From sequence record PZ049338.1: DNA of 64,000 bases. One strand, written 5' to 3'. The DNA comes from a phage. Of this stretch, positions 20,650-56,280 are shown piece after piece (the stretch's first letter is position 1; the number at the start of each line of letters is the position of its first letter). A program made the translations under genes and the position numbers. A model generated the notes under the pieces. That model ran no database searches and was not told the DNA's origin. It worked only from the letters and a program-made list of their open reading frames with translations.

Positions 20650-21075
20650 TTGAAAAAGAGATATTACAAGAAGAAAGAAGGGTCGTTGAAAGGGACTGGA
20701 TACGACTCCTTTTTAGAGAAGCATGTTCATGAGAACATAATCCCGAATGCCAGATTCCATGATAAGGGAGATAAGGTGTCTTATACCGTTTCTCATACTT
20801 ACGAACCTGATTTCGTATTAGAGAAAGATGGTAAGACTTACTTAGTGGAAACTAAGGGTAGGTTCAGGGATTCAAATGAGGCTAGGAAGTACATCTTTAT
20901 TAGAGAATTCTTACCAGAGAATACTGAATTGGTATTTGTATGGGAGAAGTCCAACACCATATTCCCGTTCGCCAAAAAGAGGAAGGATGGGACTAAAGCA
21001 ACTCATGAGGAATGGGCCATTAAGAACGGCTTTCGGAACTGGGTTCAAACATCATTCACAGAGGAAGTGTTATGA
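20650..21075 (+). CDS. T7 endonuclease I-like Holliday-junction resolvase
   Basis: Matches recalled T7 gp3 motifs: HTYEPDFVL...LVETKG...IFIREF; TTG start in track, true start uncertain. Confidence 0.7.
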   Translation: MKKRYYKKKEGSLKGTGYDSFLEKHVHENIIPNARFHDKGDKVSYTVSHTYEPDFVLEKDGKTYLVETKGRFRDSNEARKYIFIREFLPENTELVFVWEKSNTIFPFAKKRKDGTKATHEEWAIKNGFRNWVQTSFTEEVL

Positions 21076-21491
21076 TTAAGCATATAGCTACATGGGTTAA
21101 ACAAGTTGTATTTGGGGCTGGTATTGTGGCAGTCCTTGGTCTATTCCCACTAGGTTACAAATATGGGGTAGATTCTGAACACATTGCTCAACGAGCAGAG
21201 TATACCAAAGAACTTGAAACCTTAGTCAAACGTTATGACCAGACTCAAGGTATCTTATCAGCATTGGCTCAGGGTCAGCAAGTTTCATTGACCCTTTTAC
21301 GCACTAAACAGGATGGAGTGAAAAGTGACGTTAATAAGTACAATCAAAGCAGTAATGCTCGTATTTCTTGTCTTGATGATGAGTGGTTGCGGGTCTACAA
21401 CAACTCCATTACCGGAGATAAGCATAAATCCGGAAGCAAGGTTGATGGAAAGACCACAGGAAAGGTTAACACTGGAGATGGGAGCAAATAA
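21072..21491 (+). CDS. i-spanin (Rz-like), N-terminal TM anchor
   Basis: N-terminal hydrophobic helix then coiled periplasmic domain; ATGA overlap with upstream stop; contains embedded o-spanin ORF. Confidence 0.6.
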   Translation: MIKHIATWVKQVVFGAGIVAVLGLFPLGYKYGVDSEHIAQRAEYTKELETLVKRYDQTQGILSALAQGQQVSLTLLRTKQDGVKSDVNKYNQSSNARISCLDDEWLRVYNNSITGDKHKSGSKVDGKTTGKVNTGDGSK

Positions 21492-21603
21492 TGGTAATGC
21501 TCTTTCTGTTATCACTGAGAATAACATGATATGTGAAAGAGAGATTAATAAACTCACTGATTTGCAAGATTGGGTGGGGTTATTGAAACATGTGCCTAAA
21601 TAA
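21355..21603 (+). CDS. o-spanin (Rz1-like lipoprotein), overlapping i-spanin in a different frame
   Basis: Signal peptide ending in lipobox-like LMMSGC, mature Cys; classic overlapped Rz/Rz1 arrangement. Confidence 0.6.
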   Translation: MLVFLVLMMSGCGSTTTPLPEISINPEARLMERPQERLTLEMGANNGNALSVITENNMICEREINKLTDLQDWVGLLKHVPK

Positions 21604-21609
21604 GATATA

Positions 21610-21634
21610 GGGGAATATTAATTTCCCCTTTTTT
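21610..21634 (+). terminator. Rho-independent terminator ending the late block
   Basis: GGGGAA-tattaat-TTCCCC followed by TTTTTT. Confidence 0.6.
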
Positions 21635-21676
21635 CTTAAAAGTTTGTAAGATAATTAGAAATGTTAAGTAGAATTA

Positions 21677-21698
21677 CTCTTTATATATGTGGATTAAC
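21677..21698 (-). promoter_or_regulatory. Copy A of conserved 22-bp promoter-like motif, pointing leftward into the 21610-21634 hairpin
   Basis: Reverse complement reads GTTAATCCACATATATAAAGAG. Confidence 0.3.
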
Positions 21699-21831
21699 TC
21701 CACCCTATATAATAATAAAGACTGAGGTTAATTATCAGTGAAATAATAACTAGAACCAGTGGAATCATCCAATTGTCAAGAAAATTAAGTATTGACAGTG
21801 CTATCTTGTTCATACTTTGTAATCCACTCCT

Positions 21832-22551
21832 CTATCGTTGGGGGGGTTTAACTTTCTCGATAGCTGCTCTAAAGATTGCAGCACGGTGGAGTTTATCAGA
21901 TATTTCCGGAGAACGTAACTTAGTCTTTGGAACAATAATTGAGACATAAGCACTATCAGCAGAATCGAAAGGATATTGACTAATTGCCCTAACATCTAAA
22001 GCCCTCAAACCATGAATCTTCACAGGATATTTCTTTGTGATGTAAATGTGCTTGAAAACCTCGTCCATTCGCTCTCTCCAAGCCGGGGAGCGTATAGAAC
22101 GGTGTCTACCAACACAACCTATGGCTACACGTTCAAACCTCTCACACAGCCTCTCAAGACGTTCTAGAGACCCTTCGGAGTGCCATACAGGTACTGCCTT
22201 GCTTAGTAGGTGTTCTGGTAACTTCGCTAGGAGCGCGTCGTTTTCTTCATCAGTGCCGCCAATAACGTCAGGTACAATAAACCACCCGATACGAGCATAA
22301 AGAGACTCAACCCACTTATAATACTTATTCCAATGTTTATCCCAGTCAACTATCTCACCTTTACGATTCGATTTCATCCAAACAGAGAAAGCACCATTAT
22401 CAAGAATCAAGTCACAATCTAATTGAACTATACGCTTAATCTGGTCAGGGCGATGGAAAGAAACAAGGGCTCCACCTCCACGGTAGAGTGCCTTGATTAG
22501 CTCATCACCTTCACCACCCCAAATAGGGCCACCATGAAAGTGTATTGTCAT
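21832..22551 (-). CDS. Hypothetical protein (239 aa)
   Basis: First gene of leftward block; no confident domain assignment. Confidence 0.4.
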   Translation of the reverse strand: MTIHFHGGPIWGGEGDELIKALYRGGGALVSFHRPDQIKRIVQLDCDLILDNGAFSVWMKSNRKGEIVDWDKHWNKYYKWVESLYARIGWFIVPDVIGGTDEENDALLAKLPEHLLSKAVPVWHSEGSLERLERLCERFERVAIGCVGRHRSIRSPAWRERMDEVFKHIYITKKYPVKIHGLRALDVRAISQYPFDSADSAYVSIIVPKTKLRSPEISDKLHRAAIFRAAIEKVKPPQR

Positions 22552-23269: not shown

Positions 23270-23777
23270 AGTAGTTTAAGTCAGCTTCAAGTAATGCGTA
23301 ATGGATAACTTTCAAAAGATCTTGAAGACCATTCTTATCTTTGTGCCGGTATGCATACTTAATCATATTGCACTGTTGAAAATTTAACTGAGGATTTGCG
23401 TTGTAGAATTCAATTGGCTGAATACGCCCACTACCTGCTTGATAGTGAGAACCACCAACCATAGTGCTTAATGAATTACCCTTAGATGCCATCGCTAATT
23501 GCTCCGTGTGGTCATGTGAATAGTCTACTGGGGCAGTTTTATGTCCAGTAAGCATTGGTACGCAAATGTGGACTTCATTACGCTTACCCACATCAATTGC
23601 CTTTCTTTCATTACTTAATTCATACCCTGTCATTTGGGCTAGGTTATGAAGTTGGTCAGACACTATCTCATACATCTTTCTAAAAGCTTTGGCAGATAAG
23701 GATGCTTCCTCGTATTTTCGGCTTAATACCTGAAGTTCCGCCTCAGTCTCGAAGTGATTAATCATCGTCTTCATCAT
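23208..23777 (-). CDS. Hypothetical protein (189 aa); weak DUF3310-like resemblance
   Basis: GGSHY...IQPIEF motif region; assignment from memory only. Confidence 0.35.
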   Translation of the reverse strand: MMKTMINHFETEAELQVLSRKYEEASLSAKAFRKMYEIVSDQLHNLAQMTGYELSNERKAIDVGKRNEVHICVPMLTGHKTAPVDYSHDHTEQLAMASKGNSLSTMVGGSHYQAGSGRIQPIEFYNANPQLNFQQCNMIKYAYRHKDKNGLQDLLKVIHYALLEADLNYCDNPEEVAKFKQQAKELFGG

Positions 23778-23863
23778 CCTCAGATTTCTTAATCATAATC
23801 ATCATGCCCATTAATAGTAACATGAAAGCCAATACAAACAAATCACTAACAAATAAAGACGGG

Positions 23864-24208
23864 TTAGTAAACATAACAAGGTTTTCCTAATCGTTTCATC
23901 TCTGAAATCATATGCTTAGTCCCTTTGGACTCACCATCCCACATAATAATCGCTTGGTCGGCGTAGAGAGCCATCTTTGCATTGCGCAAGTGACCAGCCT
24001 TTTTACCATGTATGTGCCATTCGGCTGGGAATCGTTTAACTGGAGCACGACAACGAGCAGCTATACGCTCGCCATGTTGGTCTGGCCCTCGGGCTGTACC
24101 TGATACTACTTCGGTAATAGTCCTGCGGATATCCTTAGGAATCTGATTCCATTGAACCACAAACTCCTCCCAAGTTATATCACGACTTCCGGCAATGATA
24201 GTCTTCAT
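23864..24208 (-). CDS. SLOG/DUF2493-like (YspA-type) small protein
   Basis: IIAGSRD...MWDGESKGT pattern of the DprA/LOG-like SLOG superfamily. Confidence 0.45.
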   Translation of the reverse strand: MKTIIAGSRDITWEEFVVQWNQIPKDIRRTITEVVSGTARGPDQHGERIAARCRAPVKRFPAEWHIHGKKAGHLRNAKMALYADQAIIMWDGESKGTKHMISEMKRLGKPCYVY

Positions 24209-29570: not shown

Positions 29571-29665
29571 TATTTAATATCCTTATTAATTAATCTCAAT
29601 GTTGAGAGAACTGTTTATATCTCTCGCTCAGTTGTATATAGATTAGTGTAAGATAACTGAAAATC

Positions 29666-30097
29666 TTACATACTTTCTTGCATTATTTGAGAGCGACTAA
29701 CACCATCAAAGTAACAAAAATCGCCCACAATATTGCTATTAATATGGTATACTTCATTGAGGTTCTCACCTGTACGCTTGTGATAGTGATGGCAGATAGC
29801 TTTGTGAGCACAAATCAACCGACTCATGAACGCATACACATGGCTCCTGCCGTATGTACGACCATCCACTGTAGATGATTTCGTATTCACAAACCTGTCA
29901 ACAGCGTCATACTCTATCACTGGTAACATTCTTAGTGCAACAAATAGTGCATTGGTTGATGAAGGGCGGGAATGTCCCGAGTTCGCCGCCCCGTATAACA
30001 CATCCTGCAACCAACCACTAAGTTCATGGAGTTCATCAAAGTTAGAAAACAGGGACTGAATACAATGATTATCTAAATGGACTGTAGGACGTGACAT
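29666..30097 (-). CDS. Hypothetical protein (143 aa), His/Cys-rich
   Basis: ORF in operon context. Confidence 0.35.
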   Translation of the reverse strand: MSRPTVHLDNHCIQSLFSNFDELHELSGWLQDVLYGAANSGHSRPSSTNALFVALRMLPVIEYDAVDRFVNTKSSTVDGRTYGRSHVYAFMSRLICAHKAICHHYHKRTGENLNEVYHINSNIVGDFCYFDGVSRSQIMQESM

Positions 30098-36150: not shown

Positions 36151-36265
36151 CCGGCATTGTTTCTTTACAACACGGGCATATGTAATAGTGTGAATAGTCC
36201 TCAGTGCTTACGCGTTTCATGGGAACAAAACACCAATCACATTCAATACTTTTCACACCGTACAT
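36095..36265 (-). CDS. Small zinc-ribbon protein (~56 aa)
   Basis: CDWC...CPCC; internal ATG at 36265 with AAGGTA SD avoids overlap with upstream gene. Confidence 0.3.
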   Translation of the reverse strand: MYGVKSIECDWCFVPMKRVSTEDYSHYYICPCCKETMPGERFDEYEYEWGDYNGQE

Positions 36266-43089: not shown

Positions 43090-43156
43090 GACTTAATCCT
43101 TTTCCATGTCATTAAGCTTGCTGCGGGTATTACTTAGTGCCTTAGGTTAGATAACA

Positions 43157-43831
43157 TTACAGAGTGTCATAGTAGTCTGCGCGATTATGCAGACACCAGT
43201 CACCCGACTCAACACGGTTACTGTCGCCTTGGTCTTCATCAATGTGATAAATCCAAGCCTTTGCGAAGGAACCATCATCCAGTTGGATTTCAACCTGCGT
43301 ACGGTTATAGAAACCATTCTCAGGGTCACAGGCACTGTACCCTTCCAGCATGTCGTATGCACCAGTCAGACCTTCCAGAGGTGCTTCAAATACATCAACA
43401 ACAACCTGCTTGCCAGACTTGTTAGCCTTAAGGTTCACGGAAGGGAAGTAGGAGCCACCGTAGCGATATAAATCGAACTGGTCTACAGTCACACCCTTAC
43501 TTACAAATTCACCGCCGCCACGAGCGTTTACGTGGAAATTCTGCATGTTGCGACGCAGAGAGCCATAAGTTGCGATGAATACTTTACCGTCTGAAGGAAT
43601 TACTAAGTTCTTTGACATTACTTGTCCTGTTTTAGGTTGTAGATAATATTTAACTTCGACAAATCGCCATGTGTTCTGGAGGTTCTCTGCCATTTCTTTT
43701 GCTTCTGGGTAAGTTAAGCCACAGCCAAGCTGATAACCTTCCTCACCCTTACTCATGCGACCAATCAGTAAATAACGAACTTCATGGTCACCTGTTAGTG
43801 GTTCTTTAATTGAGAGCTTCATCTTATACAC
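43157..43831 (-). CDS. GGCT/AIG2-like (gamma-glutamyl cyclotransferase fold) protein
   Basis: YGSLRR motif characteristic of AIG2/GGCT family. Confidence 0.45.
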   Translation of the reverse strand: MYKMKLSIKEPLTGDHEVRYLLIGRMSKGEEGYQLGCGLTYPEAKEMAENLQNTWRFVEVKYYLQPKTGQVMSKNLVIPSDGKVFIATYGSLRRNMQNFHVNARGGGEFVSKGVTVDQFDLYRYGGSYFPSVNLKANKSGKQVVVDVFEAPLEGLTGAYDMLEGYSACDPENGFYNRTQVEIQLDDGSFAKAWIYHIDEDQGDSNRVESGDWCLHNRADYYDTL

Positions 43832-45203: not shown

Positions 45204-45207
45204 TTCT

Positions 45208-46865: not shown

Positions 46866-46907
46866 TGTTGTTACCTTTTCAGTGGGTTGTTGGAAATCAA
46901 TATTATA

Positions 46908-46927: not shown

Positions 46928-46938
46928 GAAATATGGAC

Positions 46939-47178: not shown

Positions 47179-47402
47179 TAGACTTCAATCCCCTTCAGAC
47201 GGCAGTAGTCAGCCAGCATCATGTGGATTGATACCGGATAAGGGATAGCCACTTTAACACCTTTTTGCTCTTCGTAAAGACCAATCTGGTAGGCACGAAC
47301 TGCACGGAGCATATCAGAACCTAAATCAGTCATTGGAACTTTACGAATCACAACCGGGTTCTCCAGACGAAGAACCTTAACTTCTTTCATTGAATCATCC
47401 AT
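47178..47402 (-). CDS. Hypothetical protein (74 aa)
   Basis: ORF. Confidence 0.3.
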   Translation of the reverse strand: MDDSMKEVKVLRLENPVVIRKVPMTDLGSDMLRAVRAYQIGLYEEQKGVKVAIPYPVSIHMMLADYCRLKGIEV

Positions 47403-47417
47403 ATTCTCATTTACCTA

Positions 47418-49409: not shown

Positions 49410-49465
49410 GGATAATAATCCTCTAAGTTCATTTAAATGGGGCCGAAGCCCCTGTTTGTTAATAC

Positions 49466-51133
49466 TTAAGCGATATGGTCGTTATCTGGCTCATAATCAT
49501 CGTCTTCTTCAATATCGTCATCTTCAGATGATTCATACATATCGTAATCACCACCACGACGAGGTACAGGGACTTCATTACGAGCTTCACGGTTCTCTTC
49601 ATTACGCATGTCTACGAACTGACGGTAGAAGTTTCCGAACAGACGAGAACGTTGAGCCTGATTGGTTTCGTAGATGAACCAATCAATGTCAAAAGTGATG
49701 CCAAGCATATCGCACTTCCAACGCAACTCAGCTAACCAACGGAATGTCAGCATTGGAGGGCGGGTGTTCTCCAACAACCAAGTGCCATTACTGCGGGTTT
49801 CCAGATTGATTCGCAGGTGTTCCCAATAGCGAGGTTCCAGATAGAAATTTGTACGATGACTTGAATCATCCTCGGCAGATTTCACAGTGTGAACGTAAGC
49901 ACTGAGTTTGCGTAGGGTTGACATTGAAATCACTTCATATGCCAGTTTGTAGCCAATGTCCAAATCTTCTTCGAAGTTCTGAACAACCTTCGGCAGACCC
50001 TTACGAATTGCGCTGTGAATCGGCAATGTTGATAGGTACTCAATGAAGTCACTATCAGTACCTTCGAAGTTCACCGCCAGTTCCTTCAGTGATAAGAAGC
50101 GGTTAGTCAGGCGAATAATGCTGCCCTTACGCCACTTGGCCTCACTAATACGGAATTCAACTGAACCAAAACTACTCATCGGTAACAAGTTCAGTGAAGT
50201 GTACTTATCCCATTCACGGGTTACACGATTAGTGAAATCGTGGTTGTCCAGATGCCAGTTGTTAGCCAGAGTAGCTAACTGCTCCTGTGCAAAACCAAGA
50301 GCAACACAGAAGTTGTTCTTGTAACGATGCCAACCAGAGCAGCGGAACAGTACACGCTCATAAACAATATACGCAAGAATCATGCGCTTCAGTTGAGCGA
50401 CACTCAAATCACGTACATCAATGTGAACGTGGGTGGAGCAACGCCAAGATGTATCTGGCGTATGACGGAACAGGAAGGAGTCGATTTCCAGGGATGCTGC
50501 ATAGAGGTCACGACCACCCCAAGGGGATGAACATACAAACTCCATACCTGAGTTACGAAGTGAACCATCTAGCTTTGCTTCCCAATACTGGAAAGTTGGC
50601 TCATCACTGAGGTGAATCTCTTCGAGTTCAATCTCAATACCTGCCAGATGTGTTCCAACAATTAAAGGATGACCCTGAATAGTTGGGTAGGTTGCACGTT
50701 GCCCGTAAATCTGTGCAATATTCATGTTATTCGATACCTCTACGTTTCCGGAGATGAAGCCGTTGCGGCTTGGATTATTAACGCTTCCGTGTCTCTGGTT
50801 ACCAATCTCTTCCCGTAGATTGTCTCGTGTGTATGCGTGTTGACCTCTTTGAAGTCCAGTGAAGAGGCTAGGTCTCTGGCTTTCGCGCTCCATTCTCCGC
50901 TGTCTTGCTTGTTCATCAGCACGGTTATTCAACCACGTCATGAAGGCACTATCTTCTGACTGAGCTACCCCCTGATTCACTATTGGCACAGGTGGCTCTT
51001 CGAAAGCTTGAGATACAACACTTTCTGTTACATTCGGAGGTTGATAATTAGCCCATCTGTCCATGTGTACAGTGGCTTCAACGTCGAAGAAACCCCCAGT
51101 TAATCCTGGGGAGTTGTTACTGTTATTTGGCAC
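49466..51133 (-). CDS. Amidoligase-like protein (GCS2/glutamine-synthetase-like fold candidate) with acidic C-terminus
   Basis: THVHID H-x-H motif; operon context with ATP-grasp and amidotransferase. Confidence 0.35.
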   Translation of the reverse strand: MPNNSNNSPGLTGGFFDVEATVHMDRWANYQPPNVTESVVSQAFEEPPVPIVNQGVAQSEDSAFMTWLNNRADEQARQRRMERESQRPSLFTGLQRGQHAYTRDNLREEIGNQRHGSVNNPSRNGFISGNVEVSNNMNIAQIYGQRATYPTIQGHPLIVGTHLAGIEIELEEIHLSDEPTFQYWEAKLDGSLRNSGMEFVCSSPWGGRDLYAASLEIDSFLFRHTPDTSWRCSTHVHIDVRDLSVAQLKRMILAYIVYERVLFRCSGWHRYKNNFCVALGFAQEQLATLANNWHLDNHDFTNRVTREWDKYTSLNLLPMSSFGSVEFRISEAKWRKGSIIRLTNRFLSLKELAVNFEGTDSDFIEYLSTLPIHSAIRKGLPKVVQNFEEDLDIGYKLAYEVISMSTLRKLSAYVHTVKSAEDDSSHRTNFYLEPRYWEHLRINLETRSNGTWLLENTRPPMLTFRWLAELRWKCDMLGITFDIDWFIYETNQAQRSRLFGNFYRQFVDMRNEENREARNEVPVPRRGGDYDMYESSEDDDIEEDDDYEPDNDHIA

Positions 51134-51717
51134 TGTGGTAATTCCTTGGCTAAAAAGCGAACCAAGTGACGTGCTTCAGCAGCCACTTCGATAGCATCGT
51201 CAGAGAGGAACTTACCGATGCTCACATCCTTGTAGCGTAAGTCTGAATTGACACGCAGGAATACCCCTCCAATAACTTCAGGATACTCATTTTTGTTGAA
51301 GAACGCTTTGATGTTCTCCCAACTAAAGCGGAAGTTGTTACAGATACGGCTGTGGGTTAACCCCTTCTTAGTTGAGCGATTTGCACGATAACTGACCCAT
51401 ACGAAGTTGTTTCCAATCTTCACGAATGCAGGCTCAGGTAATTCTAGAACCAGATTCGGGTCAGTATGAGAGATGGATACGTTACGGTAATTACCATCGT
51501 CACCCATCGTCGTTCCGTGGAATACCAGAGCATCTTCAGCTTCCTGAGAATACGCTGCACGGTCACGCTGTGCTCGCGTCATTTCACTGAAATCCAGAAC
51601 AGTATTGTCATGGGTCACTGCGTCAATCTGGAAGGGCTGGACTTTACCAGCCTCATCCTTCAGACCAACGTAAGTCCCAGAGTAATACATTGAGAAATCG
51701 TCGGTAAGCATTAGCAA
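51100..51717 (-). CDS. Hypothetical protein (205 aa), translationally coupled in amidoligase operon
   Basis: Overlaps both neighbours by short coupling overlaps. Confidence 0.4.
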   Translation of the reverse strand: MLMLTDDFSMYYSGTYVGLKDEAGKVQPFQIDAVTHDNTVLDFSEMTRAQRDRAAYSQEAEDALVFHGTTMGDDGNYRNVSISHTDPNLVLELPEPAFVKIGNNFVWVSYRANRSTKKGLTHSRICNNFRFSWENIKAFFNKNEYPEVIGGVFLRVNSDLRYKDVSIGKFLSDDAIEVAAEARHLVRFLAKELPQCQITVTTPQD

Positions 51718-52514
51718 ATCTCCATCACACGTACATATTCTTTAGCCAGAGCTTTGTCATTGTTGTTAATGACACGCTGTACTTCTTCCGGGTTGATGAT
51801 TGATGCGATGCCACGGAAATCACCACGCATCATAGCGAATGCTTTCTGAGCTTGTTCCCAAGCCCATTTGCGATTCTCTTTGTTCATAATCCAGAAGTTG
51901 GACATTACACGATATTCGATACCGTATGGCTTGAAGCGGCAAGCACCAGCTTTACCATACAGTTCTTTTCGACGGTCATCACCGTCCAGCAGGAGGGCGG
52001 GCAGTCCCAGGAAGTAGTCACACATCACGCCGAGAACTTTCTGACTTTCGGACGTCACAGTAGTAACTGTATCGTAGCCAACGTGGATGTGACCACCTGC
52101 TGTACGAAGACCGGGGTCAGCAGCTTGAGGTTTAGGATTACGCATACCAGTCAGTGCGTTGTAATCAGGCTCACAGCCGAATACGAATGCATCTTTGTGG
52201 AAGCGTTCCAGTTCAGCAGCGGTGTAGATATGAGAACTGACATTCATTGCCAGTTCATGACCTACATAACCAACTGCTTCTTCACAGTATTTGATACCAT
52301 CAACAATGTTCTTGTCGAAGGATTCAAAATCACTATGCGGGTTGGTGTCGAACTCAACCAGCACGTTATCTTCCTGAATACGAACGTCTTCCGTGACTGC
52401 TTTCTTGTTGTACTTGTCCGCTCCAAGCAGACCTGAAACAGAACTGATAGCCCCTGTGCTCGAATCACGAGTGAACAACTCAGGGTCGGTAGCCAACAAA
52501 ATAACATTAGACAT
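51711..52514 (-). CDS. Amidoligase-like protein (second copy, 267 aa)
   Basis: GGHIHVGY H-x-H motif. Confidence 0.4.
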   Translation of the reverse strand: MSNVILLATDPELFTRDSSTGAISSVSGLLGADKYNKKAVTEDVRIQEDNVLVEFDTNPHSDFESFDKNIVDGIKYCEEAVGYVGHELAMNVSSHIYTAAELERFHKDAFVFGCEPDYNALTGMRNPKPQAADPGLRTAGGHIHVGYDTVTTVTSESQKVLGVMCDYFLGLPALLLDGDDRRKELYGKAGACRFKPYGIEYRVMSNFWIMNKENRKWAWEQAQKAFAMMRGDFRGIASIINPEEVQRVINNNDKALAKEYVRVMEIC

Positions 52515-52534
52515 TTCGTTTTCCTTAAAGAGGG

Positions 52535-53671
52535 TTAATATTTAGGGTTGTAACCGTTTGCTTCTGCGAAAGCAGCCAAAGCAGCAATTGCAGCTTCAGC
52601 ATCTCTCTTGTTCATGTCACTATGAACCGGACTGTATGGGTGGTCTTGCGAACCAGATGTTGGGCCTGCAATGTAGAAACCAACAACACTGTTCCATTCT
52701 TGCACGCCTGGGATTACTTCATCACCAGCGATACTGAAAGCATCAACCATCTTACGGTAGCGAATTGCGTTAGAATGGTCAGTATCAATATCACCAAATG
52801 TATCACGCTCACGCGCTACATCACGGGAATTGGTTCTCCAGTTCCAGTAAATACCCTTGTAGCGGTCATCAAACACCACTTCAAGACTTTTAAAGTGCGA
52901 GTCACGATAGTAACCACGCTGATTCTTCCACGTATCCTGCACGTAGTCGAACTTGTCAACACGCTGATGGAGGAGGTTAATCAGGCCTTGAGAACCAATG
53001 GTGTCCGGAGAGAACCAGTTATACTCACCAGTACGAATTGGTTGATAATACTTATCGACCTTGCCCGAGAATGCACTCTTGTTAACAGTGATGTTAAAGA
53101 AGTGCGCGATGATGGCAGAAAAACGTCGCGTGTATCCACAATGCAACGCCTCTTTATAAGCGGTGACGAATCCACCATAGTTACAGAGGTTGCGGAACAA
53201 TGACATTGCCAACATAACTTCGTCAGCTTTGCGCTTGCCAATGTGGAAACGAATTACGCCAAGCTTTGGATGAACCTTCACCCAAGACTTATACATTGGC
53301 AACTCTTCCAGCAATAACTTCATTTCACTGAAATAGTTTGGGCCACAAGTTTTAAGCATGTACTTGACGCGTGATTGTTGATTTTCGATTTGGTAGAATT
53401 CCTCAGGATATTCACCATCGCCATGAGTATCCATTGGGGCAGACCACATGTGACTAATGCCATACTCAACTTCAAAATCGATGTGCTTCTGTTGGTGACC
53501 ATCACGCTCACGGATATTACTGGCTTCTACCGGAGTGAAATGTTGTGTCGGGCTGTCAGGGTTAATTAGGCGCTGCTCATGCCAACGATTAACACCCATT
53601 TTACCGAAACAAATACCTTGGGCACGGAAGGATTTTCCGTCCTTAAACATTACGCGATATTGAACTGACAT
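52535..53671 (-). CDS. Hypothetical protein (378 aa), paralog of the downstream-coordinate neighbour
   Basis: N-terminus CFGKMGVNRWHEQ aligns with CFGFMAYINQWNEH of 53672-54628. Confidence 0.45.
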   Translation of the reverse strand: MSVQYRVMFKDGKSFRAQGICFGKMGVNRWHEQRLINPDSPTQHFTPVEASNIRERDGHQQKHIDFEVEYGISHMWSAPMDTHGDGEYPEEFYQIENQQSRVKYMLKTCGPNYFSEMKLLLEELPMYKSWVKVHPKLGVIRFHIGKRKADEVMLAMSLFRNLCNYGGFVTAYKEALHCGYTRRFSAIIAHFFNITVNKSAFSGKVDKYYQPIRTGEYNWFSPDTIGSQGLINLLHQRVDKFDYVQDTWKNQRGYYRDSHFKSLEVVFDDRYKGIYWNWRTNSRDVARERDTFGDIDTDHSNAIRYRKMVDAFSIAGDEVIPGVQEWNSVVGFYIAGPTSGSQDHPYSPVHSDMNKRDAEAAIAALAAFAEANGYNPKY

Positions 53672-54628
53672 TTAGTTACCTTTTACATGTTCGTTAATGA
53701 GAGCAATGCAATTGAGGAGTTCTTCTTCATCAAGCTGATGGTAGCTTGAGGAATTATTACGAATCAGGCTCTCCAGTGTCTGACTGGTTGGTGAATCTGA
53801 TGGAGCACCTTGTACATCCATGAGAATATCCTTTAGGTCTGCTTCATGACCTATACGCTCGAAGATAGGTGCTGGTTCACCTTCCCCATCGTAGGTGGTC
53901 TCCATCGTACCATCACGGCCATAGCCGCTTGCAGTGGAACCCCACTCACCTTGCCATGCGTGTCCCAGACGACCTTCCATAATCATAATAATGTCATGGA
54001 TTTCAGTATCATCTTGGAACAGTTCAGAGTCATCACTGCATTGATACCAGTAACGAACCTCACCTTTCCAATTCGCATTGCCATTAAACATCATGGAGTA
54101 GATGAAGGCTTCTTTAGGTGAGTAACCTTTGTTACGAAGGAGTTCGTACAGTCGGTTACATGCTGTGTATTCAATCAAGTTACGGAGCATCATTGCACCG
54201 ACGATTGTTACCTGCATTTGCTGACCGCATAGAGGCCATGTAATACGAACGTTGGCATTACCCCAATTGCCACTATATTCAGATACCTTATCAAGGTTCT
54301 CTACAGTCACATTGCTGTAGAATTGTGGGAATGCTTCCATGATTGCAACTAAATCAGCTTCAATCATCCCCTTAACCGCGTCAGAATTACAACGAGGCAC
54401 TGGTAACCAAATTAAGAAGTGAATGTTATCTGATTCGAAGTCGGGGTTTGCGCAGTAAACACTTTCTGCATCCTCCCAATCAAAATCTTCATCATCTTCA
54501 TTTACAACATGCCCTAATCCATTAACGTAATGCTCGTTCCATTGATTGATGTAGGCCATGAAGCCAAAGCATGGGCGAGAGTGACGGAGTTCCTTCCCTT
54601 GTCCGTTAACAGTGATAGCTTGTACCAT
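53672..54628 (-). CDS. Hypothetical protein (318 aa), paralog of 52535-53671
   Basis: Shared N-terminal and mid-protein LRNL...Y motifs. Confidence 0.45.
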   Translation of the reverse strand: MVQAITVNGQGKELRHSRPCFGFMAYINQWNEHYVNGLGHVVNEDDEDFDWEDAESVYCANPDFESDNIHFLIWLPVPRCNSDAVKGMIEADLVAIMEAFPQFYSNVTVENLDKVSEYSGNWGNANVRITWPLCGQQMQVTIVGAMMLRNLIEYTACNRLYELLRNKGYSPKEAFIYSMMFNGNANWKGEVRYWYQCSDDSELFQDDTEIHDIIMIMEGRLGHAWQGEWGSTASGYGRDGTMETTYDGEGEPAPIFERIGHEADLKDILMDVQGAPSDSPTSQTLESLIRNNSSSYHQLDEEELLNCIALINEHVKGN

Positions 54629-54690
54629 TTGTTTGTTACCTTAGAGAGTTAAAGCTTAGAGCCCTCAATTAAGAGGGCGACCTTGAATTA

Positions 54691-55062
54691 TTATTCAGTT
54701 ACTTGCAGCTTGGAAGATTCCCAAAGCTGGTCTACCAGATGAACGCGCTTAACTGCGTCGTCAATGAATTGGTTGAGTTGAATACGCTGGAACTTCTCAG
54801 CCTGACGAGAAAGCAGGAGCTCTTGGTACTGAGCTTTCAGGAAGTTGCGAGTTACCACCAGAGTTTTCTGACGATGCCCAGCTTTGCCCAGACGGATTTC
54901 AGCATTAATAACACTGAGTTGGTCGCTGATTGATTTGCGTAGGACTTTCGCCGCAGACACTTCCAGATTAAAACGCTTAAGGTCTTTACGAGCGTTAGTC
55001 AGTGCTGAGCCTTCAGATTTCAGGATTGCTTCGATAGTTGCGATATTACCAATCTTATTCAT
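54691..55062 (-). CDS. Hypothetical coiled-coil protein (123 aa)
   Basis: ORF. Confidence 0.35.
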   Translation of the reverse strand: MNKIGNIATIEAILKSEGSALTNARKDLKRFNLEVSAAKVLRKSISDQLSVINAEIRLGKAGHRQKTLVVTRNFLKAQYQELLLSRQAEKFQRIQLNQFIDDAVKRVHLVDQLWESSKLQVTE

Positions 55063-55507
55063 TGCTTTTACCCTTAGGTTTGTGGAGTTTTAGGAAATAA
55101 TGGTTACGATATTTAAACGCTTTCTTACCTTTAGCCCAATAAGGTCTATCAGTACCACTGTAGAAGTGGGTGTAGCGATACTTGGGTTTATAACCGGGCT
55201 TCATCACCTTGCTGGCTAAGAACATTGCCTGTGCATAAGCTGCCTTCTCTTGACTCGTTTGTGGGTGAGTCTTGAAGACCTTCTTTTGCATAGTCAGCAA
55301 ACCGTTGAAGTCTTTGTGTTTAAGGCGTTTTGTCCAATCGAACTGACTCTTTTGCAGAACAACTTTACAAGCAGTATCTGGGTAACGTTCATCAGTGACA
55401 CGAGTCGCTATAACATCAGCAACTAATTCCATGCCCTTGTCACCCTCGCCTCCGGCCTCCGTATATATTGTTAATGTAAGTGCTAATAAGCACGCTGCAA
55501 AGCTCAT
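55055..55507 (-). CDS. SleB-like cell-wall hydrolase with N-terminal signal/SAR-like segment
   Basis: Hydrophobic N-terminus then EAGGEG...VADVIATRV...YPDT motif resembling SleB/Hydrolase_2 family. Confidence 0.5.
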   Translation of the reverse strand: MSFAACLLALTLTIYTEAGGEGDKGMELVADVIATRVTDERYPDTACKVVLQKSQFDWTKRLKHKDFNGLLTMQKKVFKTHPQTSQEKAAYAQAMFLASKVMKPGYKPKYRYTHFYSGTDRPYWAKGKKAFKYRNHYFLKLHKPKGKSNE

Positions 55508-55568
55508 TGGGGATTGCTCTCCTAGTGAGGTTAGTTAATGGCTCTCGTAAGAACCCTTAGTAACTTCG

Positions 55569-55832
55569 CTACGAAGCAGTTATTTCAACTGATTTAAATA
55601 CCTTCTCAACAGGTAGGTTGTGGGCCATATTTCGGGCTTCACCTGTTTCGAGATTAACAACTTTCATGTACTCTTTACCACGGCAAACACCACCGAGTAG
55701 CATATATACACGGTGCAATGGGCACCCTTCGAGGGCAAATACAGAGCCCATATGTAACTCACCAACAGTGATAGTTGTTGGATTAAGGTTAGTGGTAATT
55801 TTAACCTTTGTCATTTTCGACAATCTCCACAC
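55569..55832 (-). CDS. Small protein, member of 6-copy paralog family
   Basis: Shares G-x-x-F...VNLETG core motif. Confidence 0.4.
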   Translation of the reverse strand: MWRLSKMTKVKITTNLNPTTITVGELHMGSVFALEGCPLHRVYMLLGGVCRGKEYMKVVNLETGEARNMAHNLPVEKVFKSVEITAS

Positions 55833-56280
55833 GAGGACAGTATTTATCTTTATTGCTGCGATACATCACAACAATCCAGTTTGAATCACGACGCTCTTTC
55901 TTACGTCGTTTCTTTTCAGCACGAGTTTCATATGTGCCAGTTCGGTAGTCACGGTATATTCCACGAAGGTAGTAGAATAACCAACCAACACCAAATGATA
56001 CACCAGCCAAAGCAGCAAAAGATAAGGCACCAAGAGCAGGGGCAGCGAACCATGTCCACCAATTGAATGACAAAATATTCTCATGTCCAAGGAGAGAGCC
56101 ACCAACCATTGACAGTGCAGCGTACAATACTGCAATGAGACCTGATAGCATCACAAAATGAAATACTGTCCGCCAGAAGTATTCGCAGAAGTTGCTCATG
56201 TTATCCCAATGATAACTGGAAAGGCTTGACATTTTTTTGTTAAACTTGTGCAGCCAACCGTTCTTATTAACCTTAATCAT
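55801..56280 (-). CDS. Membrane protein with 2-3 TM helices (holin candidate)
   Basis: Hydrophobic segments FHFVMLSGLIAVLYAALSMVGG and WTWFAAPALGALSFAALAGVSFGVGWLFYY; basic C-terminus. Confidence 0.4.
   Translation of the reverse strand: MIKVNKNGWLHKFNKKMSSLSSYHWDNMSNFCEYFWRTVFHFVMLSGLIAVLYAALSMVGGSLLGHENILSFNWWTWFAAPALGALSFAALAGVSFGVGWLFYYLRGIYRDYRTGTYETRAEKKRRKKERRDSNWIVVMYRSNKDKYCPRVEIVENDKG

What the first reader, a model, noticed from the sequence alone, without database searches (positions are those of the whole stretch)
21072..56280. Dispersed lysis functions and two unrelated cell-wall hydrolases
An overlapped i-/o-spanin pair ends the late block (21072-21603). A T5-type M15 L-Ala-D-Glu peptidase sits among replication genes (30106-30510). 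A SleB-like hydrolase with a hydrophobic N-terminus (55055-55507) lies beside a multi-TM membrane protein (55801-56280), with a further two-TM protein at 59833-60108. Either the phage has two endolysins with different secretion routes, or one hydrolase is virion-associated or serves superinfection.
Basis: partly seen in the sequence, partly recalled or inferred. Interest (0 to 1): 0.4.

Follow-up and report, generated by a model that had tools for sequence, protein, structure and literature searches.

The report
Scattered phage lysis genes, two hydrolases
This Salmonella phage keeps its cell-bursting genes in three separate places and carries two different wall-cutting enzymes, an arrangement already on record for its relatives (phage 7-11, Privateer, T5-like phages), although nobody yet knows what the second enzyme does.

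Summary
The window is a 7-11-like podophage (Grimontviridae), about 97% identical to Salmonella phages PKM.Hi.22.6 and PKM.Lu.22.1. It encodes an overlapped i-/o-spanin pair closing the late operon (21072-21603). It encodes an M15C L-Ala-D-Glu peptidase with all five functionally defined residues (30106-30510). It also encodes a single-domain SleB/Hydrolase_2 enzyme with the invariant catalytic Glu (55055-55507).

None of this is new as a pattern. Phage 7-11's own annotation calls both homologues "endolysin", with the same membrane-protein neighbour. The Privateer paper describes the same dispersed layout with no holin found. T5-like, rV5-like and phiEco32-like phages also pair a main endolysin with a SleB-like gene.

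By the published 7-11 transcription map and motif copies in the window, M15 and the spanins are late genes and the SleB-like gene is early. The "hydrophobic N-terminus" is not a separate signal peptide. It is helix 1 of the catalytic domain.

Across 147 homologues, leader-bearing members have an amphipathic helix 1 and leaderless ones, like this protein, have an all-hydrophobic one. That leaves open a SAR-like self-export route, which is unproven.

No convincing holin lies in the window. The best family-wide candidate sits in a ~9-kb tail-gene segment the window lacks.

The parts
20390..20415 (+). Late-promoter-like motif (GTAAgG-N16-ACTA) directly after the last structural gene, upstream of the small ORF, endonuclease and spanin group
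   Evidence: One mismatch to the 7-11 gp47-sigma late consensus GTAAtg-(16)-aCTA (consensus from PMC8948821). Function is inferred.
20650..21075 (+). Endonuclease I-like gene, overlapping the i-spanin start by 4 nt (context, not a lysis gene)
   Evidence: Pfam Phage_endo_I 9e-10 and phrog_945 5e-32.
21072..21491 (+). i-spanin (Rz-like): N-terminal TMD plus a periplasmic helical domain
   Evidence: phrog_8821 3e-27. TMD at residues 9-27. 53% identical to the annotated Rz-like spanins of SE131 and SeKF_80.
21325..21603 (+). o-spanin (Rz1-like outer-membrane lipoprotein) in overlapped architecture; GTG start with a GGAG ribosome-binding site, lipobox Cys22
   Evidence: phrog_1267 1e-12. Sequence read. 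The ORF is conserved at 64% identity at the same overlapped position in SE131 and SeKF_80, where it is unannotated or truncated.
21609..21629 (.). Bidirectional intrinsic terminator closing the rightward late block and the leftward cluster
   Evidence: 7-bp G+C-rich stem followed by a T-run on both strands.
29644..29669 (-). P48-equivalent late-promoter motif, downstream of M15 and upstream of the gp48 and sigma-factor homologues
   Evidence: GTAAGA-N16-ACTA in the intergenic gap upstream of 28797-29570. Position matches the validated 7-11 promoter P48 (PMC8948821).
30106..30510 (-). M15C L-alanyl-D-glutamate peptidase: the principal, cytoplasmic (holin-dependent) endolysin
   Evidence: phrog_465 3e-48. 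PDB 8q2g 8.5e-22 and EndoT5 2e-15. H64/D76/H131, D128 and W114 align with EndoT5 H66/D73/H133, D130 and W114. AAGGAG ribosome-binding site. No TM or signal segment. Homologue of 7-11 gp050 'endolysin'.
36186..36211 (-). P69-like late-promoter motif upstream of the DNA polymerase-to-M15 stretch
   Evidence: GTAAGC-N16-ACTA. Its position relative to ThyX and DNA polymerase resembles 7-11 P69. Function is inferred.
43135..43160 (-). [quoted passage not shown]
   Evidence: GTAATG-N16-ACTA with 0 mismatches. No 16-nt-spacer copy lies further right on the minus strand.
55055..55507 (-). Single-domain SleB/Hydrolase_2-type muralytic enzyme (predicted lytic transglycosylase), leaderless, with hydrophobic helix 1 (residues 3-16) ending at catalytic Glu17
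   Evidence: Pfam PF07486 59.9 bits. AF2 model pLDDT 94.7. Foldseek top hits SleB 4F55/4FET, probability 1.0. E17 and R36 are invariant in 147 homologues. Homologue of 7-11 gp111 'endolysin'.
55801..56280 (-). 159-aa membrane protein (2-3 TMDs, very basic C-terminus), two genes upstream of the SleB-like gene; function unknown, weak holin candidate
   Evidence: phrog_944 7e-41. TMDs. 80% identical to phiEco32 gp92 and 31% to 7-11 gp113.
59833..60108 (-). 91-aa two-TMD protein in the early region; lineage-restricted, unlikely to be the conserved holin
   Evidence: Two TMDs. tblastn finds it only in the two PKM phages, plus a 35% match in phiEco32.
9896..9902 (+). Deletion junction (7-bp repeat TGACTGG). 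The window lacks ~8.96 kb of tail genes present in PKM.Hi.22.6, including the 62-aa phrog_402 membrane protein that is the best family-wide holin candidate
   Evidence: blastn breakpoints, junction alignment, and no copy of the 62-aa protein in the window.

Best explanation
The window carries the standard, physically dispersed lysis equipment of 7-11-like (Grimontviridae) podophages.

(1) An overlapped two-component spanin pair is transcribed at the very end of the rightward late operon. It fuses or disrupts the outer membrane as the last step of lysis.

(2) The main endolysin is a soluble, cytoplasmic, Zn-dependent M15C L-Ala-D-Glu peptidase. It is encoded in the leftward cluster that 7-11 transcribes late from phage-sigma promoters. 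It has no export signal, so it must wait for a holin lesion in the inner membrane.

(3) A second, unrelated muralytic enzyme of the SleB/Hydrolase_2 fold is encoded in the early region, with an intact catalytic Glu. I read it as an accessory enzyme that acts in the periplasm, not as a virion protein.

The route of the second enzyme to the wall is the open step. My slightly favoured reading (about 0.35-0.4) is that its all-hydrophobic first helix doubles as an uncleaved, weak membrane-targeting segment, in the manner of a SAR domain. On that reading the enzyme is held inactive with Glu17 at the membrane. When the helix leaves the bilayer it packs back onto the domain, possibly locked by a C6-C47 disulfide, and the enzyme becomes active.

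Shown: gene identities, catalytic residues, fold, gene order, synteny with 7-11, and the coupling between the leaderless state and a hydrophobic helix 1 across the family.

Inferred: expression timing (by homology to the 7-11 map plus motif copies), the identity of the holin, and every step of the export and activation of the SleB-like enzyme.
For: Spanins.

M15: family, structure and residue matches. Hydrophilic N-terminus. Homologue of 7-11 gp050 'endolysin'. T5 keeps the same enzyme type directly behind its holin. EndoT5 and LysSTG2 are the experimentally validated M15C endolysins of that group.

Timing: the 7-11 map has early sigma-70 transcription running leftward from the right end, the first late promoter at gene 69, and P48 upstream of the sigma gene. 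The window has motif copies at 43135, 40756, 38855, 36186 and 29644 on the minus strand and at 20390 on the plus strand. None has a 16-nt spacer on the minus strand to the right of 43160.

SleB-like, active enzyme: Pfam, AF2 pLDDT 94.7, SleB as the only significant PDB fold match, and E17/R36 invariant in 147 homologues.

SleB-like, periplasmic family: the T5-like and rV5-like homologues have clear signal peptides. Of 81 extended homologues, 69 have a signal-like segment. A co-conserved Cys pair is present, in 71/80 leader-bearing and 44/67 leaderless proteins, and forms the only two Cys of the window protein.

SleB-like, SAR-like reading: helix-1 mean hydropathy is 1.71 in 65 leaderless proteins against -0.03 in 81 leader-bearing ones. 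The change sits on the -5/-9/-11/-12 face, while the buried face is unchanged. The two states are interspersed on a tree built without helix 1. There is experimental precedent for a SAR endolysin without a basic anchor (PMC4640515).

Not virion-associated: the gene has an early-region location in 7-11, Privateervirus, phiEco32, T5-like and rV5-like phages.
Against: No holin can be named in the window, so the M15 release step rests on general knowledge of canonical endolysins.

The SAR-like reading has real weaknesses. The uncharged stretch is only about 14-16 residues and failed my 19-residue hydropathy threshold. There is no basic n-region, and several leaderless relatives have an acidic residue near the N-terminus. 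No conserved pinholin-like neighbour exists across lineages. AlphaFold places helix 1 confidently inside the fold. One leaderless homologue sits in a T7-like contig in the slot of the cytoplasmic T7 lysozyme gene 3.5.

The leaderless proteins are also the query's closest relatives, so part of the dichotomy may be shared ancestry. The tree has phylogenetic signal: 29 changes against about 49 in shuffles.

SleB itself is specific for spore-cortex peptidoglycan (established knowledge). Activity of this family on Gram-negative murein has not, to my knowledge or in my searches, been demonstrated.

The promoter-motif count in the window is only modestly above chance: 9 against 4.75 expected, with 7 of 100 shuffles reaching 9.
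Confidence: 0.6

Rival explanations
1. The SleB-like protein is a plain cytoplasmic second endolysin. It accumulates in the cytoplasm from early times and reaches the wall only through the same holin lesion as M15. This gives the phage two bond specificities (glycan strand and peptide stem) for faster or more robust lysis. On this view the hydrophobic helix 1 is simply a core-packing helix.
For: No canonical signal peptide or full-length TMD. AF2 packs helix 1 into the domain with pLDDT about 97. A leaderless homologue occupies the T7 gene 3.5 slot, between RNA polymerase and primase/helicase, in a T7-like contig. 7-11's annotators called gp111 an endolysin. Many phage families pair a main endolysin with this protein.
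Against: It does not explain why the solvent-facing positions -5, -9, -11 and -12 of helix 1 are hydrophobic only in leaderless members. It does not explain why a Cys pair typical of the secreted members is kept. Early expression of a purely lysis-stage enzyme is also unexplained.
Confidence: 0.3
2. The SleB-like protein has an early, non-lytic job in the envelope. Examples would be local peptidoglycan remodelling, exclusion of superinfecting phages, or processing of muropeptides. It might work together with the adjacent amidoligase / COOH-NH2 ligase / GAT-II / ATP-grasp cluster.
For: The gene has an early-region position in all lineages examined. In T5-like and rV5-like phages the protein is Sec-secreted, so it would enter the periplasm long before lysis without killing the cell. 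Synteny with the ligase cluster is kept between this phage, 7-11 and Privateervirus.
Against: The link to the ligase cluster is not kept in phiEco32, where gp117 lies 8 kb away. It is absent in T5-like and rV5-like phages. No evidence of any specific exclusion or remodelling function was found in the literature searches.
Confidence: 0.15
3. One of the two hydrolases is packaged in the virion and opens the wall at DNA entry.
For: Unlike phiEco32 and SU10, which have an SLT-domain ejection protein (gp22/gp20), no peptidoglycan-hydrolase domain was detected in this phage's ejection-protein block 10081-20387. The entry enzyme is therefore unaccounted for. SleB domains do occur inside very large virion proteins of some phages.
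Against: Both genes lie outside the structural module. The SleB-like gene is in the early region and M15 is among replication genes. The Privateer paper names no such protein among its virion proteins. Both are small stand-alone proteins with no virion-attachment domain.
Confidence: 0.05

Closest known systems
Salmonella phage 7-11 (Moazamivirus): gp050 'endolysin' (M15), gp111 'endolysin' (SleB-like), gp113 membrane protein, Rz-like spanin after the last structural gene
   Same: Same gene set in the same order. The spanin closes the late block. M15 lies between the phosphoesterase and the sigma-factor genes. The sequence membrane protein, small gene, SleB-like gene sits upstream of the COOH-NH2 ligase cluster. 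The i-spanin is 53% and the o-spanin 64% identical to the 7-11-like phages SE131 and SeKF_80. The SleB-like protein is about 65% identical to P0003, a protein held by NCBI that I take to be the 7-11-group homologue.
   Different: The genome is smaller (~76 kb in the PKM relatives against 90 kb). The window's membrane protein is much closer to phiEco32 gp92 (80%) than to 7-11 gp113 (31%), so the region is mosaic. The window lacks the tail-gene segment.
Proteus phage Privateer / Privateervirus lysis genes (PMC7881722)
   Same: The published description is the same: i- and o-spanin immediately after the last structural gene, an endopeptidase endolysin about 12 kb downstream, and no holin identifiable. 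The Privateervirus 3H10_20 has a 46%-identical SleB-like gene upstream of the same ligase cluster.
   Different: The paper does not mention the SleB-like gene. Here the endolysin is about 8.5 kb from the spanins.
T5-like phages (Demerecviridae): EndoT5 M15C endolysin with holin, plus an early-region 'cell wall hydrolase SleB'
   Same: The same pair of enzyme families occurs in one genome, with the SleB-like gene in the early region away from the lysis genes. EndoT5's catalytic residues are conserved in the window's M15.
   Different: In T5 the M15 gene is directly behind its holin. The T5-like SleB homologue has a cleavable Sec signal peptide and an amphipathic helix 1, whereas the window protein is leaderless with a hydrophobic helix 1.
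phiEco32 / SU10 (Kuravirus) lysis genes
   Same: Lysis genes are also dispersed, with three wall hydrolases: holin gp16 and lysozyme gp17 among the tail genes, the SLT ejection protein gp22, spanin gp39 in the middle region, and the SleB-like gp117. The gp92 membrane protein is shared.
   Different: The main endolysin is a lysozyme, not M15. The holin is adjacent to it. The spanin sits elsewhere. An SLT ejection protein is present, whereas none is detectable here.
SAR endolysins (P1 Lyz, phage 21 R21, phiKMV gp45)
   Same: By analogy only. There is an N-terminal, weakly hydrophobic, Ala/Thr/Cys-rich helix immediately next to the catalytic Glu. That helix is also part of the folded active enzyme, as in R21. 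It contains a Cys, as in P1 Lyz (established knowledge of those systems).
   Different: A different fold (SleB/Hydrolase_2, not lysozyme). A hydrophobic run of about 14-16 rather than about 20 residues. No basic n-region. No adjacent pinholin. An early-region rather than a lysis-cassette location.
Bacillus SleB / CwlJ spore-cortex lytic enzymes (PDB 4F55, 4FET)
   Same: The same catalytic-domain fold and the same Glu motif: YGESRGE against YTEAGGE.
   Different: No N-terminal peptidoglycan-binding domain. No YpeB-type partner. A Gram-negative host without muramic-delta-lactam. About 19-20% sequence identity.

Membership tests
Two-component spanin, overlapped architecture (Rz/Rz1 type) | i-spanin: N-terminal transmembrane domain followed by a periplasmic, largely helical domain | tested here: met
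   TMD at residues 9-27. phrog_8821 'Rz-like spanin' 3e-27 over residues 5-129.
Two-component spanin, overlapped architecture (Rz/Rz1 type) | o-spanin: outer-membrane lipoprotein signal with a lipobox Cys | tested here: met
   MTLISTIKAVMLVFLVLMMSG-C22, followed by G-S (no Asp at +2). phrog_1267 1e-12.
Two-component spanin, overlapped architecture (Rz/Rz1 type) | The o-spanin gene starts inside the i-spanin gene in another frame and extends beyond its stop | tested here: met
   21325 lies inside 21072-21491, and the ORF ends at 21603. Definition from PMC6139136.
Two-component spanin, overlapped architecture (Rz/Rz1 type) | Required for outer-membrane disruption at lysis | not testable with these tools
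   Needs genetics (a spherical-cell phenotype of spanin nulls in the presence of divalent cations).
M15C L-alanyl-D-glutamate peptidase endolysin (EndoT5 / EndoRB49 type) | Zn-binding triad His-Asp-His | tested here: met
   H64, D76 and H131 align with EndoT5 H66, D73 and H133 (residues from PMC10487532).
M15C L-alanyl-D-glutamate peptidase endolysin (EndoT5 / EndoRB49 type) | Catalytic Asp and the essential conserved Trp | tested here: met
   D128 aligns with D130 and W114 with W114.
M15C L-alanyl-D-glutamate peptidase endolysin (EndoT5 / EndoRB49 type) | Sequence membership | tested here: met
   PDB 8q2g 8.5e-22 and 2mxz 2e-15. phrog_465 3e-48. Pfam Peptidase_M15_4 scores only 20.9 bits, below the cutoff of 25. 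The Pfam sub-model is therefore not met, but the phage-specific profile and the solved homologues are.
M15C L-alanyl-D-glutamate peptidase endolysin (EndoT5 / EndoRB49 type) | Soluble and cytoplasmic (no signal or SAR), hence holin-dependent | tested here: met
   No hydrophobic segment in the hydropathy scan; N-terminus MSNVKLSARSQERLDQ. Holin dependence itself was not tested.
SleB/CwlJ cell-wall hydrolase (Pfam PF07486 Hydrolase_2) | Profile match above the curated threshold | tested here: met
   59.9 bits against a cutoff of 27, E 4e-16, covering profile positions 1-99 of 100.
SleB/CwlJ cell-wall hydrolase (Pfam PF07486 Hydrolase_2) | Catalytic Glu at the end of helix 1 (Y-x-E-[AS]-x-G-E motif) | tested here: met
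   Y15-T-E17-A-G-G-E21 aligns with SleB YGESRGE. E17 is invariant in 147 homologues.
SleB/CwlJ cell-wall hydrolase (Pfam PF07486 Hydrolase_2) | SleB catalytic-domain fold | tested here: met
   AF2 pLDDT 94.7 and pTM 0.88. Foldseek 4F55/4FET probability 1.00, TM 0.56-0.67, with no other significant fold.
SleB/CwlJ cell-wall hydrolase (Pfam PF07486 Hydrolase_2) | N-terminal peptidoglycan-binding domain and YpeB partner, as in Bacillus SleB proper | tested here: not met
   The protein is a single 150-aa domain that starts at helix 1. It is therefore a Hydrolase_2 family member, not a SleB orthologue.
SleB/CwlJ cell-wall hydrolase (Pfam PF07486 Hydrolase_2) | Lytic transglycosylase activity on peptidoglycan | not testable with these tools
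   Needs a muropeptide analysis of digested sacculi.
SAR (signal-arrest-release) endolysin | N-terminal weakly hydrophobic TMD of roughly 20 residues rich in Ala/Gly/Ser/Thr | tested here: inconclusive
   The uncharged run is residues 1-16 (MSFAACLLALTLTIYT), rich in Ala, Thr and Cys. Its 13-mer hydropathy is 2.13, but no 19-residue window reaches 1.5.
SAR (signal-arrest-release) endolysin | Basic n-region before the hydrophobic segment | tested here: not met
   The protein starts M-S-F with no Lys or Arg before residue 24. A precedent exists for a functional SAR without one (PMC4640515).
SAR (signal-arrest-release) endolysin | Sec-dependent, holin-independent export, with release on membrane depolarisation | not testable with these tools
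   Needs induction, azide and energy-poison experiments.
SAR (signal-arrest-release) endolysin | Associated pinholin or holin gene | tested here: not met
   No small TM gene is consistently next to the SleB-like gene across the window, 7-11, 3H10_20, phiEco32, T5-like and rV5-like loci.
Holin (tested for the 159-aa protein 55801-56280) | One or more TMDs plus a highly charged C-terminus | tested here: met
   2-3 TMDs and a C-terminal ...RAEKKRRKKERRD... tract.
Holin (tested for the 159-aa protein 55801-56280) | Late expression and linkage to the endolysin it serves | tested here: not met
   It lies in the early region, 25 kb from M15. Its 80%-identical homologue gp92 exists in phiEco32, which has a separate holin gp16 next to its endolysin.
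Virion-associated peptidoglycan hydrolase | Encoded in the structural module, or as a domain of a tail or ejection protein | tested here: not met
   Both hydrolases are small stand-alone proteins outside the block 1-20387. No hydrolase domain is present in the ejection proteins.
Virion-associated peptidoglycan hydrolase | Detected in purified virions | not tested
   No proteomics exists for this phage. The Privateer paper's text names no such protein among its virion proteins, but its full table was not available to me.

The most novel reading that the evidence does not exclude
Leaderless phage Hydrolase_2 (SleB-fold) enzymes, including this one, are a so-far undescribed class of self-exporting, membrane-tethered muralytic enzymes. 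On this reading the first helix of the catalytic domain, which ends in the catalytic Glu, has been made hydrophobic all round. It can then serve as an uncleaved Sec signal or SAR-like anchor. The enzyme would be held inactive at the membrane from early in infection and switched on when the helix leaves the bilayer and repacks, possibly with disulfide locking through C6-C47. The phage would then run a canonical holin/M15 pathway and a SAR-like pathway in parallel.
Probability: 0.3. Interest if true: 0.55.

Novelty: new member of a known kind. Interest (0 to 1): 0.27.

Why it matters
As described, the finding is ordinary for this phage group. Its practical value is annotation. The nearest deposited genomes (PKM.Hi.22.6, PKM.Lu.22.1) label all of these genes "hypothetical" and truncate the o-spanin. 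The assignments here could be transferred to them directly.

The open question it touches is modest but real. Hundreds of virulent coliphages and Salmonella phages carry a SleB-fold enzyme in addition to their proven endolysin. These include T5-like, rV5-like, Phapecoctavirus, Kuravirus and 7-11-like phages. Nobody has shown what that enzyme does.

The family-wide coupling found here gives a concrete, cheap experimental handle on that question: members with a signal peptide have an amphipathic helix 1, and members without one have an all-hydrophobic helix 1. If the enzyme proves active on Gram-negative murein, it would also interest people who engineer lysins.

Tried and rejected
1. First AF2 run with 11 close homologues gave pLDDT 50 and was discarded. 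The 147-sequence alignment was needed.

2. Single-sequence phmmer of the SleB-like protein against the PDB gave only E 0.18-0.45 to SleB. Membership rests on the Pfam profile and the fold.

3. I looked for a lysis-cassette context around five leaderless homologues. None was found. Only the T7-like 'gene 3.5 slot' was informative.

4. I looked for a peptidoglycan-hydrolase domain in the ejection/late proteins 10081-20387 with Pfam and PHROGs. None was found, so the entry enzyme of this lineage remains unidentified. SeKF_80's 'endolysin' label on the N-terminal part of the giant last structural protein was not reproduced by either library.

5. Homologues of phiEco32 holin gp16, lysozyme gp17, SLT gp22 and spanin gp39 are absent from the window (tblastn E > 0.1).

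6. Small TM ORFs at 21694-21813, 23758-23874, 56977-57153 and 58070-58222 have no PHROG family and occur only in the PKM phages. 62385-62567 probably overlaps a longer gene in another frame.

7. The sigma-70 promoter scan around the SleB-like and M15 genes gave no more hits than shuffles.

8. The phiEco32 single-element promoter consensus was not pursued, because the 7-11 paper shows it does not apply to 7-11-type sigma factors.

9. KBNP1315 turned out to be SP6-like, not a relative.

10. Literature searches for a SAR-type SleB or Hydrolase_2 endolysin returned nothing.

Full report
WHAT THE WINDOW IS

Megablast shows the window is about 95-97% identical, over nearly its whole length, to two deposited phages, Salmonella phage PKM.Hi.22.6 and phage PKM.Lu.22.1. 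Both are Grimontviridae of about 76 kb. The window is more distantly related (about 75-80% in conserved genes) to the 7-11 / SE131 / SeKF_80 group (Moazamivirus). Parts of its early region are 83-90% identical to phiEco32-like Kuraviruses. In the two PKM records every gene discussed here is labelled "hypothetical protein".

CHECKING THE OBSERVATION

Spanins. The i-spanin (21072-21491, 139 aa) has one N-terminal TMD at residues 9-27 and matches phrog_8821 "Rz-like spanin" at 3e-27. The o-spanin ORF (21325-21603) starts at a GTG six bases after a GGAG, inside the i-spanin gene in another frame. It runs 112 nt beyond the i-spanin stop. It encodes a lipoprotein signal ending ...LMMSG-C22 and matches phrog_1267 at 1e-12. 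This is the "overlapped" architecture, which was the commonest class in the spanin census, at 228 of 528 systems (PMC6139136). A strong bidirectional terminator follows at 21609-21629. The o-spanin ORF is conserved at 64% identity at the same place in SE131 and SeKF_80. There it is unannotated or truncated, and PKM.Hi annotates only a 41-aa fragment.

M15 peptidase. The protein at 30106-30510 (134 aa) matches phrog_465 "endolysin" at 3e-48. It also matches solved L-Ala-D-Glu endopeptidases: 8q2g at 8.5e-22, ChiX, and EndoT5 2mxz at 2e-15. I aligned it with T5 Lys and 7-11 gp050. It conserves the Zn ligands (H64, D76, H131 against EndoT5 H66, D73, H133). It also conserves the catalytic Asp (D128 against D130) and the essential Trp (W114) (residue roles from PMC10487532). 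It has a strong AAGGAG ribosome-binding site and no hydrophobic segment.

SleB-like protein. The protein at 55055-55507 (150 aa) scores 59.9 bits against Pfam Hydrolase_2, where the cutoff is 27. An AlphaFold model built on a 147-sequence alignment is confident, with pLDDT 94.7 and pTM 0.88. Its only significant PDB matches are the SleB catalytic domains 4F55 and 4FET, at probability 1.00 and TM 0.56-0.67. Glu17 aligns with the Glu of the SleB YGESRGE motif. Glu17 and Arg36 are the only two strictly invariant positions across the 147 homologues.

That criterion is not met, because both look active.

Membrane proteins. The protein at 55801-56280 has 2-3 TMDs and a very basic C-terminus, and matches phrog_944 at 7e-41. 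The protein at 59833-60108 has two TMDs.

THIS ARRANGEMENT IS ALREADY ON RECORD

In the original annotation of phage 7-11, gp050 (M15) and gp111 (SleB-like) are both called "endolysin". The order there is gp113 membrane protein, gp112, gp111, followed by the COOH-NH2 ligase cluster, which is the order in the window.

The Privateer paper describes the same layout in a relative. Its i- and o-spanins come immediately after the last structural gene. Its endopeptidase endolysin lies about 12 kb downstream. A holin "could not be reliably identified" (PMC7881722).

tblastn finds the SleB-like protein in 734 phage records and the M15 protein in 1219. T5-like phages have both. A T5-like genome paper lists lysozyme, holin and "cell wall hydrolase SleB" in the early region (PMC3326045). 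A 2024 paper explicitly remarks on M15 next to the holin plus a distant SleB-domain ORF, and leaves the role open (PMC11180984). Phapecoctaviruses pair a GH24 lysozyme with a Hydrolase_2 protein.

phiEco32 is dispersed as well. It has holin gp16 and lysozyme gp17 among the tail genes, the SLT ejection protein gp22, spanin gp39 in the middle region, and the SleB-like gp117. The experimentally validated endolysins in the T5 group, EndoT5 and LysSTG2, are the M15C enzymes. I found no characterisation of a SleB-fold protein from a phage of a Gram-negative host.

EXPRESSION TIMING (INFERRED)

[quoted passage not shown] Early sigma-70 transcription starts at the right end and runs leftward over almost half the genome. 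The phage ECF sigma (gp47) recognises GTAAtg-(16)-aCTA. The first late promoter precedes gene 69. [quoted passage not shown] 7-11 gp050 (M15) lies between P69 and P48, and gp111 lies far to the right, in early territory.

The window encodes the homologous sigma factor (27998-28567) and has motif copies at matching places. A P48-equivalent sits in the gap upstream of the gp48 homologue (29644-29669). A P69-like copy sits at 36186-36211. Further copies lie at 38855 and 40756. The only perfect match is at 43135-43160, upstream of the primase/helicase gene. On the plus strand there are copies ahead of late-gene groups, including 20390-20415, just before the small ORF, endonuclease and spanin group. 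No 16-nt-spacer copy lies on the minus strand to the right of 43160.

The raw motif count is only modestly above chance, at 9 against 4.75 expected, so the weight rests on positional agreement with 7-11. My conclusion is that the spanins and M15 are late genes and the SleB-like gene is early.

THE "HYDROPHOBIC N-TERMINUS"

It is not a separate leader. The T5-like homologue starts MKAALLLTAALAFSFNSHA|THDAKEIECIAKNIYFESRGEG. The rV5-like one starts MKFSALLLAFTLSSAPAVSYA|KES...ALACNIYKEARGEG. Both are textbook Sec signal peptides followed by the catalytic helix. The window protein and all 12 of its close relatives start directly at that helix, MS[FW]xxC[LW]LALTL[TN]IYTEAGGEG. No in-frame start is possible upstream. 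AlphaFold models residues 3-18 as helix 1 of the domain with pLDDT about 97.

I then analysed the 150 best of 1752 hits from an exhaustive phmmer search of 1.84 billion representatives. Of the proteins with a recognisable motif, 81 have an N-terminal extension, and 69 of those contain a signal-like hydrophobic 12-mer. The other 65 are leaderless. The 13 residues before the Glu have mean hydropathy -0.03 with 2.8 charged residues in the extended class. In the leaderless class they have mean hydropathy +1.71 with 0.4 charged residues.

Position by position, the buried face of the helix (-3, -7, -8, -10) is hydrophobic in both classes. Positions -5, -9, -11 and -12 are 41-62% charged in leader-bearing proteins and at most 9% charged, and hydrophobic, in leaderless ones. 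In the window these positions are L12, L8, C6 and A5. On a neighbour-joining tree built without helix 1, the two states are interspersed. There are 29 parsimony changes against about 49 for shuffled labels, and the largest pure leaderless clade holds 29 of 67.

A Cys in helix 1 and a Cys at the C47 column co-occur. Both are present in 71/80 leader-bearing and 44/67 leaderless proteins, and only one is present in 4 and 9. They are the only cysteines in the window protein, which fits a disulfide formed in the periplasm.

INTERPRETING THE SECOND HYDROLASE

The family is a periplasmic one. In the leaderless branch the exposed face of the first helix has become hydrophobic. The most economical functional reading is membrane targeting, with helix 1 acting as an uncleaved, weak signal-anchor in the manner of a SAR domain. 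In phage 21 R21 the SAR helix also refolds into the active enzyme, and in P1 Lyz a SAR-domain Cys takes part in activation (established knowledge). A functional SAR endolysin without a basic anchor has been reported (PMC4640515).

The case is far from closed. The uncharged run is only about 14-16 residues and fails a 19-residue TM threshold. There is no basic n-region, and some leaderless relatives have an acidic residue at positions 2-4. No pinholin-like neighbour is conserved. One leaderless homologue sits in a T7-like contig between the RNA polymerase and the primase/helicase, where T7 keeps its cytoplasmic lysozyme gene 3.5. The leaderless proteins are also the query's nearest relatives.

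My estimates are about 0.35-0.4 for self-export, about 0.3 for a plain holin-dependent second endolysin, about 0.15 for an early non-lytic envelope role, and about 0.05 for virion packaging.

The virion idea draws some life from one negative result. No hydrolase domain is detectable in this lineage's ejection proteins, whereas phiEco32 and SU10 have an SLT ejection protein. But the gene's early-region location in every lineage argues against packaging.

THE HOLIN

M15 needs one, and none is convincing in the window. The 159-aa membrane protein is 80% identical to phiEco32 gp92, and phiEco32 has its own holin next to its endolysin. It is only 31% identical to 7-11 gp113, and it lies in the early region. 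The 91-aa two-TMD protein is confined to the PKM phages, apart from a 35% match in phiEco32. Four smaller TM ORFs are also PKM-only and have no family.

The only small membrane protein conserved across the M15-bearing Grimontviridae is a 62-aa protein with an N-terminal TMD and a highly charged C-terminus (phrog_402, no annotated function). It lies between the head and tail genes in PKM (16320-16508). It is 78% identical in SeKF_80 and 47% in Proteus phage J3S. In Felixounaviruses its homologue sits at the end of the late operon, directly before a gene annotated as holin. That is suggestive but not proof.

That gene is not in the window. The window joins PKM position 13407 directly to 22366 through a 7-bp repeat (TGACTGG), in frame. 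This fuses the first 267 codons of the capsid gene to the last ~55 codons of a tail-region gene (PKM 21668-22537). It removes about 8.96 kb of capsid-extension and tail genes.

VERDICT

Both enzymes look active, they plausibly use different routes, and virion association is unlikely. The pattern is ordinary for this phage family and already annotated or published for 7-11, Privateer, T5-like and phiEco32-like phages.

The one thing that goes beyond the literature I could search is the family-wide link between loss of the signal peptide and an all-hydrophobic catalytic helix 1. That is a testable lead on the long-ignored second hydrolase, not a demonstrated mechanism.

Noticed in passing
window 9896-9902 (junction), inside ORF 9102-10067: Relative to PKM.Hi.22.6 the window lacks PKM 13408-22365 (~8.96 kb: capsid C-terminus and extension, small genes, tail fibre and tail genes). 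The join runs through a 7-bp direct repeat, TGACTGG, and is in frame. ORF 9102-10067 is therefore a chimera of the capsid N-terminal 267 codons and the last ~55 codons of a tail-region gene. A phage with this deletion should not be viable, so this is either a defective deletion variant or an assembly artefact.
   Followed up: partly
window 43157-54628, minus strand: A large cluster of peptide- and amide-bond-forming enzymes lies directly downstream of the SleB-like gene. It comprises a GGCT-like protein (43157-43831), an ATP-grasp protein (45678-46865), a class-II glutamine amidotransferase with Cys-rich C-terminal repeats (47418-49409), an amidoligase-like protein (49466-51133), a COOH-NH2 ligase-like protein (51711-52514), and two conserved unknowns (52535-54628). 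It is homologous to phiEco32 gp84-88 and 7-11 gp099-107. Its product and target are unknown. Synteny with the SleB-like gene holds in 7-11 and Privateervirus but not in phiEco32.
   Followed up: partly
window 21325-21603; L001 2479-2604; L002 ~3244-3507; L007 30404-30667: The o-spanin gene is mis-annotated in all relatives checked. PKM.Hi.22.6 annotates a 41-aa fragment, SE131 annotates nothing, and SeKF_80 annotates a 53-aa 'hypothetical protein'. The full ORF with its lipobox is conserved at 64-97% identity.
   Followed up: yes
window 55835-59248: This stretch of the early region is 83-90% identical at the DNA level to phiEco32-like Kuraviruses (87 records). The membrane protein is 80% identical to phiEco32 gp92 but only 31% to 7-11 gp113. 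This points to a recent mosaic exchange between Kuravirus and this Grimontviridae lineage.
   Followed up: partly
window 55569-55832 and 56280-56546; possibly also 60607-60873 and 60882-61103; 7-11 gp110 and gp112: Small (~75-90 aa) proteins with a similar look (…GEVF/VR…G…Y/L…) flank the SleB-like and membrane-protein genes and recur in the early region. 55569-55832 matches five related PHROG families of unknown function. They may be a paralogous early-gene family.
   Followed up: no
window 20607-20626: A hairpin with a TTCG loop (GGCTCC-TTCG-GGAGCC) followed by a T-run lies between the 45-aa ORF and the endonuclease I gene, upstream of the spanins. The 7-11 paper discusses similar (C/G)TTCGG hairpins as RNA-stability or processing elements rather than terminators.
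   Followed up: no
window 1-64000 (whole): No tRNA genes were detected. The 7-11-like SeKF_80 has six tRNAs just upstream of its terminase gene, and phiEco32 has a tRNA-Arg in its early region.
   Followed up: partly
window 21694-21813 (-) and 23758-23874 (-): Two very small single-TMD ORFs (39 and 38 aa, the latter with a poly-acidic C-terminus KKSEDDEDDD) lie in the leftward late cluster. The first is convergent with the spanin terminator. They are conserved only in the PKM phages and have no family match.
   Followed up: partly
window 10081-20387: No peptidoglycan-hydrolase domain is detectable (Pfam, PHROGs) in the ejection/late structural proteins of this lineage. phiEco32 and SU10 have an SLT-domain ejection protein, and SeKF_80 labels the N-terminal part of the giant last protein 'endolysin'. 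How this lineage gets through the wall at entry is unaccounted for.
   Followed up: partly
L004 11415-11711 (phiEco32 gp116): The gene immediately downstream of phiEco32's SleB-like gp117 is annotated 'DNA helicase'. It actually encodes a 98-aa protein with an N-terminal TMD and a long coiled coil, which looks like an i-spanin. The label is probably an annotation error and the gene may be envelope-related.
   Followed up: no
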